From the NCBI GenBank assembly GCA_048882505.1, contig JBHLRO010000033.1, positions 1-30,616 on the forward strand: a stretch of 30,616 bases of DNA, given 5' to 3'. Made by a program: the position numbers and the translations under genes. How positions within the stretch are numbered: position 1 is the first letter of the stretch; each line of letters starts with the position of its first letter. The stretch is from Candidatus Thorarchaeota archaeon (GTDB taxonomy: Archaea > Asgardarchaeota > Heimdallarchaeia > Hodarchaeales > Hodarchaeaceae). The notes beneath the pieces are model-generated. The model was given only the letters and a program-made list of their open reading frames with translations. It was not told the DNA's origin and ran no database searches. Shown piece by piece: positions 3,001-4,697 of the stretch.

Positions 3001-4697
3001 AAATACAGTTTCTGAATCATACTGGTGACACGTATTGGTTCCGATTTAATTCTAGTCAATCTACTATTGGAACACACGCTGTGTTGATTTCTCTTGCAGG
3101 GGCGAATTTTGAAGCGAGTAACATCACTGTGGTTTTCACTGTAACCGAAATGCCTACCCTATCAATACCCCTATCTCAAGTACACGTGATCAATAATGGG
3201 ACTGTACTAATCGAGGATTCTCTGGAAATAACTATTGATTCTTTCCAGACGTTTAGGGGAATAAACATAACCCACCTTGATGAAATTTCATACTGGTTAA
3301 ATACGACCATTGTTCCTGAATCGATTTTAACGATTCCACAGTTTTCTCAAGCACCGTTTTCGATTTCTATTTCGACCGTGGGTTGGCAATACGGATTTTA
3401 CAATCTCACGTTACAAGTTCAAACCATCGGATACCAACCACAATTTGTTACACTAAATATAACGCTCTTAGGACGTTCTACCTGGATGGAACTTGAGATT
3501 CAGCCTGGCAAAACAATATCGCAAGGAGAAAACATCACCCTAATAGTTTCGTTACACTACGAAACTACGACCGAAAGCGGCTTTGGATCAAGTCTGAATC
3601 TAGTTCCTCTTGAAAGCGTAGAAGTTTTCTTTTACGTTGTACTTATGTACAACAATGAAACATCTGGAATATATGAGCAATCTGTGCTGACTGACATCAA
3701 CGGACAGGCAACATACGTCATTGACGGTCAATTTACACTAGATTCTATTGGGTTTGAAAATATCACCGTTAGTACTGGGTCATCTCTTTCAGGACTACCT
3801 ACTAAACTTGGTTTGGCCAATCTAGAGGAATATCACTTTGTAACCCCTCCACGGGGCCTTTGGGAACTCTTAGCCCCTCTACTGTTACCGCTTGCTGGAC
3901 TCATCGCAGCCATTGCTTTGGCAGCGGCTGGTGTTTATAGGTTTAATAAATCCCGGAAAGCCCGTAAAGTGCGAACAATTCAAGTTGACCGGAGTATAGA
4001 AAAGGGATTTGAAGATATTAAATCTATAAGGTTGGTAATTGCACGGCATCAATCTGGCCTTCAATTTTATTCCGAAAAAACCATCGCTGAACTTCAGGCG
4101 GATACCGATGCCTTGTCAGGCATGTCTGCTGCTCTTTCATCGTTTATGGAAGAGGTTTCGGAAAGCATGCGCTCGCGAAAAGAAGATTCAATCGAAGCAA
4201 AAATCGAAACCATGAGTAGAGAGGGCTTACATATGCTTGTATGGCACGGACGATATTCCAGTCTACTCATCATTTCGGAAATTGAACTTCCGGAGTATTT
4301 CAGGGATCGACTCGATGGTTTAGGACATGAAACTGAAGATAAGTTCGAGCACGAACTCAAGGATTTCTATTCGACTGACCAGATTCCTGCTTCGATTATC
4401 AAAAAAATTGTACGAAAACACGTTCCTTTGCACTATTTCAGCGCCTTCGTCTTGAATGAAGGAGTCCTGACGCTCAAGGACATAAAGCTTTCCAAAAAGC
4501 ACAATAGGATGCTTAAAATGATTAAAAAGATCATGTTCACAAAAGAAGGTGTTGAATATCTATTCTCTGAACAAATTATTTCCTATTTGGCAACGAAGTA
4601 TAAGCGAAGTGAGGCCATCAAATTTCTAGATCATGCCATAGAATTGAACCTGTTGGTGGAATGTAATCAGGAAGATCTAATACAGCTCGGAAGGTAA
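78..4697 (+). CDS. Large single-pass cell-surface (glyco)protein with cytoplasmic longin/roadblock-like domain and probable C-terminal winged helix
   Basis: 1539-aa ORF with a GTG start. Basic N-region then hydrophobic IVLVILLSSLYAQL (signal peptide or anchor). About 1250 aa of N/T/S-rich beta-type ectodomain with very many N-x-S/T sequons. TM helix LWELLAPLLLPLAGLIAAIALAAAGVY (~3858-3938) followed by basic RFNKSRKARK. The cytoplasmic part shows a longin-like order: SIRLVIARHQSGLQFYS / DTDALSGMSAALSSFMEEV / IETMSREGLHMLVWHGRYSSLLIISE / helix. Confidence 0.8.
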   Translation: MFIKWSQKNLRISRWKHRQQLRRIGSQIVLVILLSSLYAQLTEILPFNKSLRDDEVNVDSLADNSLGIKVPRLTTDINRGSVSDLIASPPYDRSFANLAIGQQSGVGGGIYSAFDSFNWTGEEVMNTSNTYVSEKPTSNIDSLTVTDPAGYNRQYGLFNITNVLAEYNKTNIEDTDNYNFNFHWDSRNILAPGDGYYEVAMSFEIKEAFAYIRTVRTYIAGVASATGKIYITNATGGNVPNDINITSKEDLGSTGEAWHEYTFDTPVLLQGGQTYFVVMNETNADDNSDYWRWFYIYDTAGTGDGVDEGIVCYKEDTHATWNTFASRDLPLQLEILPVEWNGTHYAPKEYSNPSTLDFTYESSEGTTKLSTFNQFNWNDSIWHRFVTNTSVSFNVSFVANYTYGSNPILATPTYLVSNGSVTSWNLTFTTPKVNTTYSVRNHTVRIANFEADWNGTNIYWNNTLTPQFSDLPANTSVSPDGDYSNRYQHGIHTTMYVNASDLSENTTWHVWFSAPNHLLNFTIGHGNNPLAFPYQANITDILNLTFYTSSTGNLTYWIDYPNGSARTRLNINPTDTVFGEEWDINKTVDQTINVNGTYWLQAFWNNSGLTQVGTFTRKLDIYVNTSLTPQADGEVIVGEKFNVTALYRSKHNDTDIRGARIWANASWPLGSKQNVTMNQLGDDSYNASFTTIGQAAGFIGTVTINTHLGWFVNWTQTIVVKFVEVSSLTVNKTVLKLQWRENMTLRIDYNTSLNSAIENATVTVNGSTTFNDSNNFYYYRLNTTSFLGVGTYLIPINASHGNYSSQNIVITLSITPGETGINGSYKGQALANTTTVPENQIYAASSQDQVFINLRYHSTYPTDLTINVTPSVNSQGIPDVSFQSETNSTWTIILNPDAIGLFTVDVTFDWPNYYNASSFVFQVNVIRAATEITSGTTFPSSIYFTDSSDFYLLYNNTVYNELIPSVGPGINDSAKIQFLNHTGDTYWFRFNSSQSTIGTHAVLISLAGANFEASNITVVFTVTEMPTLSIPLSQVHVINNGTVLIEDSLEITIDSFQTFRGINITHLDEISYWLNTTIVPESILTIPQFSQAPFSISISTVGWQYGFYNLTLQVQTIGYQPQFVTLNITLLGRSTWMELEIQPGKTISQGENITLIVSLHYETTTESGFGSSLNLVPLESVEVFFYVVLMYNNETSGIYEQSVLTDINGQATYVIDGQFTLDSIGFENITVSTGSSLSGLPTKLGLANLEEYHFVTPPRGLWELLAPLLLPLAGLIAAIALAAAGVYRFNKSRKARKVRTIQVDRSIEKGFEDIKSIRLVIARHQSGLQFYSEKTIAELQADTDALSGMSAALSSFMEEVSESMRSRKEDSIEAKIETMSREGLHMLVWHGRYSSLLIISEIELPEYFRDRLDGLGHETEDKFEHELKDFYSTDQIPASIIKKIVRKHVPLHYFSAFVLNEGVLTLKDIKLSKKHNRMLKMIKKIMFTKEGVEYLFSEQIISYLATKYKRSEAIKFLDHAIELNLLVECNQEDLIQLGR

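What the first reader, a model, noticed from the sequence alone, without database searches (positions are those of the whole stretch)
3858..4697. Single-pass receptor architecture with a cytoplasmic longin-like domain plus probable winged helix
After the TM helix and basic stop-transfer segment, the tail follows the longin order: beta-beta (IRLVIARHQSGLQFYS), alpha (TDALSGMSAALSSFMEEV), three strands (IETMSREG/LHMLVWHG/YSSLLIIS), then two helices. A further ~75 aa (KKHNRMLKMIK..FSEQIISYLATKYKRSEAIKFLDHAIELNLLVE) looks like a winged-helix or DEP-like unit. No kinase or cyclase domain is visible, so output would have to be by protein interaction. Similar tails are recalled in Asgard proteomes, but their function is unknown.
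Basis: partly seen in the sequence, partly recalled or inferred. Interest (0 to 1): 0.65.

Follow-up and report, generated by a model that had tools for sequence, protein, structure and literature searches.

The report
Asgard surface glycoprotein with longin tail
A large sugar-coated surface protein of a Hodarchaeales (Asgard) archaeon crosses the membrane once and ends inside the cell in the longin fold that eukaryotes use to dock small GTPase switches; its gene is tightly followed by a folliculin-type longin gene and a gelsolin gene, which names a testable but unproven link from the cell surface to GTPases and actin.

Summary
Observation confirmed. ORF 78-4697 (1539 aa, Hodarchaeales) is a type I membrane glycoprotein: 64 N-glycosylation sequons precede the helix at aa 1264-1288 and none follow aa 1290. 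An AlphaFold2 model of the tail (pLDDT 84.5) is a longin (aa 1316-1455; Z 12.5 to synbindin and Sec22b) plus a winged helix (aa 1456-1538; best Z 9.3, a LanB peptide-recognition-type domain; DEP not favoured). A profile of the module matches 257 of 301 Asgard genomes. This genome has three single-pass copies and a HerA-ATPase fusion. The tail lacks the GP motif and arginine loop of GAP longins. The next gene (CTG start at 4712, 14 nt gap) encodes a tandem longin that has both, follows a tail gene at 18 of 19 checkable loci and precedes gelsolin at 19 of 20. That linkage is one inherited locus in one genus. Best reading: a membrane-anchored, non-catalytic longin platform that docks a partner longin and so a small GTPase; binding and signalling are inferred. 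Not described in the papers searched; this scan noted the same architecture many times on other Asgard DNA.

The parts
78..4697 (+). ORF of the type I membrane glycoprotein, 1539 aa from GTG 78; the public gene call starts 9 codons later at TTG 105 (1530 aa)
147..215 (+). N-terminal hydrophobic segment (aa 24-46) after a basic N-region; predicted signal peptide
   Evidence: hydropathy; same feature in full-length homologues
225..1097 (+). Variable membrane-distal tip of the ectodomain (aa 50-340): only 44-50% identical to the nearest relative whose tail is 93-99% identical
   Evidence: weak lectin-like/Ig leads only (score 0.85)
1098..3857 (+). Asn/Thr-rich, heavily N-glycosylated stalk, probably Ig-like beta-sandwich repeats (inferred; no Pfam or NCBIfam hit; not folded)
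   Evidence: a distant homologue has a weak Big_1 hit
3867..3941 (+). Single transmembrane helix (aa 1264-1288)
3942..4022 (+). Basic stop-transfer segment and juxtamembrane helix (aa 1289-1315)
4023..4442 (+). Cytoplasmic longin domain (aa 1316-1455); invariant G1327 and A1352, near-invariant G1348; no GP motif and no conserved arginine loop
4443..4694 (+). Winged-helix domain (aa 1456-1539), nearest to LanB/RiPP-recognition-type domains
4698..4714 (+). Shine-Dalgarno AAGGAGG (4698-4704) directly after the stop codon, then a CTG start codon at 4712
   Evidence: same letters in G280 and in contigs of two studies; orthologues have ATG here
4712..5635 (+). Candidate partner, 307 aa: small longin-like domain, GP-motif longin with near-invariant D183, R185, G190, R191, and a C-terminal coiled coil (assigned by motif; not folded here)
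5913..7073 (+). Two-repeat gelsolin with Pro-rich linker and extra C-terminal domain; follows the partner gene at 19 of 20 loci

Best explanation
The protein is an adhesin-like surface glycoprotein whose inner tail is a membrane-anchored, non-catalytic longin platform. SHOWN (computationally): export and single-pass topology, longin plus winged-helix folds, a tail far better conserved than the outside part, no enzyme domain. INFERRED from how longins work (pairs of longin or roadblock domains form a side-by-side dimer whose two top helices dock a small GTPase; PMC3747258): the tail pairs with a second longin through its conserved helix 1 (small residues G1348 and A1352 on one face). INFERRED from gene linkage: for this copy the second longin is the product of the next gene, whose second domain carries the GP motif and a loop arginine like the catalytic subunits FLCN, SMCR8 and NPRL2 (PMC12290439). 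The tail would play the role of the non-catalytic half (NPRL3 or FNIP-like) and hold a GAP for a Rag/Arf/Rab-like GTPase under the site of attachment; the winged helix would be a further peptide-binding surface. SPECULATIVE: the GTPase output tunes gelsolin and actin at that site, and ligand-driven clustering switches it. My odds per step: topology 0.97, longin 0.95, winged helix 0.85, works by pairing with another longin or roadblock 0.65, the next gene's product is a partner 0.4, regulates a small GTPase 0.35, ligand-triggered signalling 0.2.
For: Topology. Folds. Sequence link to known Asgard longins: the tail profile hits the N-terminal longin of a Gtr1/RagA GTPase (E 5e-7) and a small protein with a Pfam Longin hit. 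Tail 54-77% identical across the genus while the ectodomain is mostly 20-55% and varies from about 1400 to over 2700 aa. Conserved residues cluster in strands 1-2 and helix 1. Partner gene directly behind a tail gene at 18 of 19 checkable loci with gaps of about 14-60 nt, while neighbouring junctions (gelsolin-SerRS, SerRS-PAC2) take insertions. GP and Arg motif kept in the partner and in its distant heimdallarchaeial kin. Three genus genomes lack the close tail clade, the two-domain partner and the gelsolin orthologue together (71-87% complete). A solved Lokiarchaeal longin is a dimer (8YQG, Z 10.5).
Against: The partner-linked tails form one side of a single branch (one change, support 77), so the 18 loci are one inherited event in one genus, inside a block that also keeps SerRS, PAC2 and CDC48. 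G211 keeps the partner and gelsolin with an unrelated gene upstream, and G241 keeps tail and partner without gelsolin. Close paralogues with 54-67% identical tails have no partner gene, and the two-domain partner was found only in this genus whereas the tail is pan-Asgard. The partner was not folded here, has its own first longin that could occupy its dimer face, has no Pfam Folliculin or NPR2 hit, and its loop spacing differs from the ARG motif. No small GTPase gene is a steady neighbour of tail genes.
Confidence: 0.38

Rival explanations
1. The tail is a general docking cassette for the cell's longin pool (self-dimers, longin-Rag GTPase fusions, the HerA-ATPase that carries the same longin plus winged-helix module); the downstream gene is only a syntenic neighbour.
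For: The module occurs on surface proteins across Asgard with no steady neighbour. The same helix-1 motif is on a longin-RagA fusion, multipass proteins, a TPR protein and a HerA/DUF87 ATPase in this genome. The HerA fusion is full length in the genus genomes searched (6 of 6, one in two pieces). Paralogues without the partner gene keep equally conserved tails.
Against: The tail-partner junction is tight, has its own ribosome-binding site and has not taken insertions. No specific alternative partner is supported by gene order.
Confidence: 0.27
2. The tail is a constitutive anchor or sorting handle: it fixes or routes the surface protein (to protrusions, vesicles or the actin cortex) as the longins of VAMP7, Sec22b and AP sigma do for sorting, with no signal passed inward.
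For: Best structural matches include Sec22b, VAMP7, sedlin and AP sigma subunits, which are not GAPs. The transmembrane segment is the least conserved part (10-47% identity outside the nearest relative), unlike a helix that relays a conformational change. No catalytic motif in the tail.
Against: Does not explain the tight coupling to a GP/Arg longin. A 250-aa two-domain tail conserved across a phylum is more than a sorting tag needs. Cultured Hodarchaeales are internally simple (10.1101/2025.02.26.640444).
Confidence: 0.25
3. A membrane-tethered one-component transcription regulator: the winged helix binds DNA at the membrane or after proteolytic release (ToxR/CadC-like logic).
For: Winged helices often bind DNA; Fur, MecI and BlaI appear among the weaker matches (Z 4.8-5.7).
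Against: The best matches are protein- or peptide-binding winged helices (TbtB Z 9.3, MibB, NisB, MetAP2 insert). Across 61 homologues the third helix, second helix and wing carry mean net charges of +0.5, -0.7 and -0.4, and no exposed basic residue there is conserved.
Confidence: 0.06

Closest known systems
Eukaryotic longin domains: TRAPPC4/synbindin (2ZMV), Sec22b (3EGD, 1IFQ), sedlin/TRAPPC2 (2J3W), VAMP7, AP sigma/mu and COPI zeta
   Same: Five-stranded longin fold over aa 1316-1455: Z 12.5, rmsd 3.3-3.7 A over 122-128 residues; Foldseek E 3e-4 to 8e-4.
   Different: Only 9-16% identity and no Pfam Longin hit. The longin lies C-terminal to a transmembrane helix and a 1200-aa glycosylated ectodomain, has no SNARE motif, and is followed by a winged helix.
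GATOR1 NPRL2-NPRL3, FLCN-FNIP and C9orf72-SMCR8 longin GAP pairs
   Same: Longin followed by winged helix is the NPRL2/NPRL3 layout (PMC3747258). The neighbouring gene product has the GP motif and a conserved loop arginine described for the catalytic subunits (PMC12290439).
   Different: The tail itself lacks GP and the arginine loop, has one winged helix and no DENN lobe, and is membrane-integral. Structural similarity to these longins is lower (Z 7.6-9.4) than to TRAPP and SNARE longins. Pairing and GAP activity are not shown.
Asgard soluble longin, roadblock-longin and longin-GTPase fusion proteins (PMC10933270; PDB 8YQG; Liu et al. 10.1101/2020.10.19.343400)
   Same: Same fold (8YQG Z 10.5) and detectable profile similarity to a longin-RagA fusion of this genome.
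   Different: Those described are soluble or fused to GTPases, DENN, ESCRT or two-component domains; a longin tail on a single-pass surface glycoprotein was not mentioned in the passages read.
LanB dehydratase and RiPP recognition element (RRE) winged helices (TbtB 6EC8, MibB, NisB, PbtF)
   Same: Best fold matches of aa 1450-1539: Z 9.3, rmsd 3.2 A over 86 residues for TbtB; 6.6 MibB; 6.0 NisB.
   Different: 8-14% identity, no RiPP context; a shared fold shows no function.
Adhesin-like Ig/fibronectin surface proteins of cultured Asgard archaea (10.1101/2025.07.22.663070; PMC9834061)
   Same: Signal sequence, long beta-rich ectodomain, one membrane helix.
   Different: Cytoplasmic domains of those proteins were not described in the passages read.

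Membership tests
Longin fold superfamily | Topology of two strands, helix, three strands, two helices (not the roadblock permutation) | tested here: met
   AlphaFold2 secondary structure, pLDDT 84.5
Longin fold superfamily | Best structural neighbours are longins | tested here: met
   Top 17 rows are longins, Z 12.5 to 9.5; the best roadblock MglC is Z 9.4; one search agrees
Longin fold superfamily | Side-by-side dimer that docks a small GTPase | not testable with these tools
   Needs purified protein; conserved small residues on helix 1 are only suggestive
Pfam Longin PF13774 (regulated-SNARE-like) | Profile match over the curated cut-off | tested here: not met
   No hit on the tail
GAP-type longins (FLCN, SMCR8, NPRL2): the tail | GP motif before strand 2 and conserved arginine in the strand 4-5 loop | tested here: not met
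   The turn holds an invariant Gly without Pro; the strand 4-5 turn is short and R1392 is not conserved
GAP-type longins (FLCN, SMCR8, NPRL2): the downstream protein | GP motif | tested here: met
   G118 invariant, P119 at 90% or more in 50 sequences
GAP-type longins (FLCN, SMCR8, NPRL2): the downstream protein | Arginine finger at the structurally equivalent place | tested here: inconclusive
   R185 and R191 near-invariant in the predicted loop, but spacing differs from the ARG motif, no model was made and Pfam Folliculin and NPR2 do not hit
GAP-type longins (FLCN, SMCR8, NPRL2): the downstream protein | GAP activity on a Rag or Arf GTPase as a longin heterodimer | not testable with these tools
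   Bench assay needed
Winged-helix superfamily | Three-helix bundle with a small antiparallel sheet; winged-helix neighbours | tested here: met
   Model pLDDT 89.6; the match list is dominated by winged helices
DEP domain (PF00610) | Profile match | tested here: not met
   No hit on the tail even at E 10; none among 61 homologues
DEP domain (PF00610) | DEP fold as nearest structure | tested here: inconclusive
   DEPTOR at Z 5.2, rank 29, tied with many generic winged helices
Type I single-pass glycoprotein | Signal peptide, one helix, positive-inside segment, sequons outside only | tested here: met
Signalling receptor | Ligand binding outside changes an activity inside | not testable with these tools
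   No ligand or output known

The most novel reading that the evidence does not exclude
The surface protein, the GP/Arg tandem longin and gelsolin form a working adhesion module: contact clusters the tail, tail and partner assemble a folliculin/GATOR1-like GAP at the membrane, and the GTPase switch controls actin remodelling during the protrusion-based crawling reported for Hodarchaeales. This would be a prokaryotic receptor-GTPase-actin pathway built from eukaryote-type parts.
Probability: 0.12. Interest if true: 0.88.

Novelty: new variant of a known kind. Interest (0 to 1): 0.55.

Why it matters
Asgard archaea, including a cultured Hodarchaeales strain, crawl with actin-filled protrusions and need regulated adhesion (PMC13716822), but no protein that connects their surface coat to GTPases or actin has been named, and Asgard GTPases are hard to match to regulators from gene order (PMC10933270). 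A phylum-wide family of surface proteins with an inner longin tail is a direct candidate for that link. This locus adds a small, soluble, expressible pair (250 aa tail and 307 aa GP/Arg longin) to test. If they form a GAP, the longin-pair logic of folliculin and GATOR1 would have been tied to the plasma membrane by surface proteins before eukaryotes had lysosomes.

Tried and rejected
Search for sequencing runs: no RNA holder listed. Pfam, NCBIfam and PDB sequence searches found nothing significant for the tail, the winged helix, the ectodomain or the partner; the mTOR_dom hit (E 0.04-0.08) is below cut-off and was rejected. Foldseek on the winged helix alone gave no match at E 0.001. Profile-profile comparison found no relation between the tail and the partner or between the tail and the folliculin-type tails; folliculin-type tails versus partner gave only the GP hairpin (probability 22%). 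A conserved small-GTPase neighbour was sought in 44 tail loci and not found: adjacent in two, three to five genes away in six (crude motif filter). The annotated TTG start at 4844 was rejected for the next gene. The ectodomain and the partner could not be folded because both jobs went to the tail. Paper searches for Asgard with single-pass and longin, and for Asgard with adhesin, GTPase and surface protein, returned no paper; the library lacks most subscription journals.

Full report
Observation. The stretch 3858-4697 is the end of one 1539-aa ORF, 78-4697(+). Named homologues are from Candidatus Hodarchaeales and related Asgard assemblies. The protein has a hydrophobic segment at aa 24-46 after a basic N-terminus, a Thr/Asn-rich region of about 1200 aa, one strong membrane helix at aa 1264-1288 and a basic segment behind it. 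It has 64 N-x-S/T sequons before aa 1265, one at N1290 and none later. The same helix precedes the tail in 84 homologues long enough to show it, with ectodomain sequon densities of about 2-6 per 100 aa and 0-6 sequons per tail. The tail is therefore cytoplasmic by inference from three independent features; DeepTMHMM was not available. Contigs from public runs cover the region with few differences, so it is not an assembly artefact.

Folds. From an alignment of 73 tails AlphaFold2 gave a model with mean pLDDT 84.5 and pTM 0.78: juxtamembrane helix, two strands, helix, three strands, two long helices, then a second small domain. A search of 48,161 solved chains put longins in the first 17 rows: synbindin and Sec22b at Z 12.5 (rmsd 3.7 and 3.3 A; 128 and 122 residues), sedlin 11.9, VAMP7 11.4, a dimeric Lokiarchaeal longin 10.5; the best roadblock was 9.4. 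Foldseek agreed. There is also a sequence link: the tail profile hits the N-terminal part of a Gtr1/RagA GTPase (E 5e-7) and a 150-aa protein with a weak Pfam Longin match in the same genome. The last 90 residues, folded alone (pLDDT 89.6), are a winged helix. The best match is the LanB-type domain of TbtB (Z 9.3, rmsd 3.2 A, 86 residues), then MibB, NisB, MetAP2 inserts and RRE domains at Z 5-6.6; DEPTOR is at 5.2 and NPRL2 at 5.1. The DEP-like look of the sequence holds only for the close clade and Pfam DEP does not hit. The presumed recognition helix and wing are not basic across the family, which argues against DNA binding. No enzyme domain was found.

Distribution and paralogues. The tail profile matches 257 of 301 Asgard genomes at E 1e-8 or better, including 84 of 90 high-quality ones; many of the best matches cover both domains. 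Of 20 loci that I picked from different families, mostly for long frames, 15 are clear signal peptide, glycosylated ectodomain, helix and tail proteins, two more probably are, one is soluble, one holds two multipass proteins with longin-only tails and one is unclear. This genome has three single-pass copies (C33 here, C5 at 55% identity, C9 distant), a HerA/DUF87 ATPase with intact Walker motifs fused to the same two-domain module, and several longin-only relatives. The tail is the most conserved part: 54-77% identity within the close clade against mostly 20-55% outside the membrane. The nearest relative is 93-99% identical in the tail but only 44-50% in aa 50-340, and the C5 paralogue is more similar in aa 521-730 (64-67%) than in the tail (56-58%), which points to exchange of outer modules on a fixed inner cassette. 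The membrane helix itself is poorly conserved.

The next gene. The frame behind the stop codon is open from 4667. A Shine-Dalgarno sequence at 4698-4704 precedes a CTG at 4712, where orthologues have ATG; G280 and contigs from two studies carry the same letters. The 307-aa product reads as a small longin-like domain, a second longin with the hairpin FDDxEGP and a loop D183-x-R185 to G190-R191, and a coiled coil. PMC12290439 describes the GP motif plus an arginine finger as the marks of the catalytic longins FLCN, SMCR8 and NPRL2 and reports such longins in Heimdallarchaeia. Distant heimdallarchaeial kin of this second domain keep both motifs. I could not fold this protein, and Pfam Folliculin and NPR2 do not hit it. 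The full two-domain form was found in 19 of 22 genomes of this genus and in none of the other 61 genomes of the class. It lies directly behind a tail gene at 18 of 19 checkable loci, about 14-60 nt away, and gelsolin follows at 19 of 20. NCBI locus tags of several homologue pairs are consecutive. The limits are clear. The linked tails form one side of one branch (support 77), so this is one ancestral locus. The wider block with SerRS, PAC2 and CDC48 is also kept, though with insertions at other junctions. G211 has lost the upstream surface gene, G241 lacks gelsolin there, and close paralogues have no partner gene. No small GTPase is a steady neighbour of tail genes.

Mechanism. Longin and roadblock domains mostly act as dimers that offer two top helices to a GTPase (PMC3747258), and Asgard ones form such dimers (PMC10933270). 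The tail's conserved residues sit in strands 1-2 and helix 1, with small residues on one helix face, and it lacks the GP and arginine marks. I therefore read it as the non-catalytic, membrane-fixed half of a longin pair, with the co-transcribed GP/Arg protein as the likeliest other half for this copy (overall 0.38). A general docking cassette for other longins (0.27) and a constitutive anchor or sorting handle (0.25) are close rivals; a DNA-binding regulator is unlikely (0.06). Topology and folds are computed results; pairing, GAP activity, a ligand and any link to gelsolin are inferences.

Context. The same genome holds a second class of at least nine giant single-pass glycoproteins whose 195-240 aa tails are themselves GP/ARG longins, unrelated to this tail by profile; Pfam Folliculin hits one of them and a 10,069-aa protein weakly. 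So two kinds of longin, catalytic-looking and not, are tethered to the membrane by surface proteins in this cell.

Comparison and novelty. The fold is well known and Asgard longins are described, as soluble proteins and as fusions to GTPases, DENN, ESCRT and two-component domains. Asgard adhesin-like proteins are described without cytoplasmic domains. I found no paper that joins the two, within a library that lacks most subscription journals. Hodarchaeales cells crawl with actin-based protrusions and gelsolins co-purify with Asgard actin (PMC13716822), which is why the linkage is worth testing. Earlier notes of this scan report the same architecture in at least 73 genomes and the same three-gene order; these are unchecked AI notes and are not counted as support. 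Verdict: real feature, new variant of a known kind, function inferred; interest 0.55.

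Noticed in passing
G000 contigs C17, C8, C4 (two), C35, C50, C1, C9 (two); loci L198-L205: At least nine other giant single-pass glycoproteins (823-4342 aa) end in GP-type longin tails with an ARG-like loop as in FLCN and SMCR8; the tandem pair on C9 has one intact and one degenerate copy. A 10,069-aa protein on C10 has a weak Pfam Folliculin hit.
   Followed up: partly
L032:8007-10646 (G000 C30): HerA/DUF87 ATPase of 880 aa fused to the same longin plus winged-helix module; full length in 6 of 6 genus genomes searched, not seen full length outside the genus; ends face a multipass protein with a weak longin-like tail.
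   Followed up: partly
window 4698-4714: CTG start codon behind a perfect Shine-Dalgarno; gene callers truncate the product to 263 aa and lose most of its first domain.
   Followed up: yes
L093:3-3545, L098:3-3314, L100:1-2898: In relatives a second single-pass surface protein lies upstream, with a Pro-rich linker and a short winged-helix-like tail; not found in G000, whose contig starts at window position 1.
   Followed up: partly
L001:5671-6984, L096, L103, L104, L105, L107: Paralogues without the partner gene are preceded by a 370-460 aa secreted protein similar to part of the ectodomain.
   Followed up: no
window 5913-7073: The gelsolin's last 95 aa also exist as a stand-alone small protein in relatives (L191, beside a Rab-like GTPase and a metallophosphoesterase), and sister-family gelsolins lack it.
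   Followed up: partly
window 13200-14512 and L001:3935-5254: A Rab-like GTPase paired with a calcineurin-like phosphoesterase lies within 2-9 kb of both close receptor copies in this genome; may be chance given about 34 small GTPases.
   Followed up: no
L033:7925-8500: A Rab-like GTPase lies 470 nt downstream, same strand, of the distant C9 paralogue; L102 shows another directly adjacent case.
   Followed up: partly
L087:5185-8681; G000 C1, C7, C13: Multipass membrane proteins of 400-620 aa (one with a weak MFS hit) carry longin-only C-terminal tails related to this one, often as tandem pairs in Loki-type genomes.
   Followed up: no
window 8589-13058: PAC2-family proteasome chaperone, O-methyltransferase, CDC48 and Hsp20 form an ordinary proteostasis block kept near SerRS in the genus.
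   Followed up: no
window 24270-29572: Three-gene glutamate synthase-like cluster with two Glu_synthase barrels, one matching only weakly (E 9e-11 against 1e-89).
   Followed up: no
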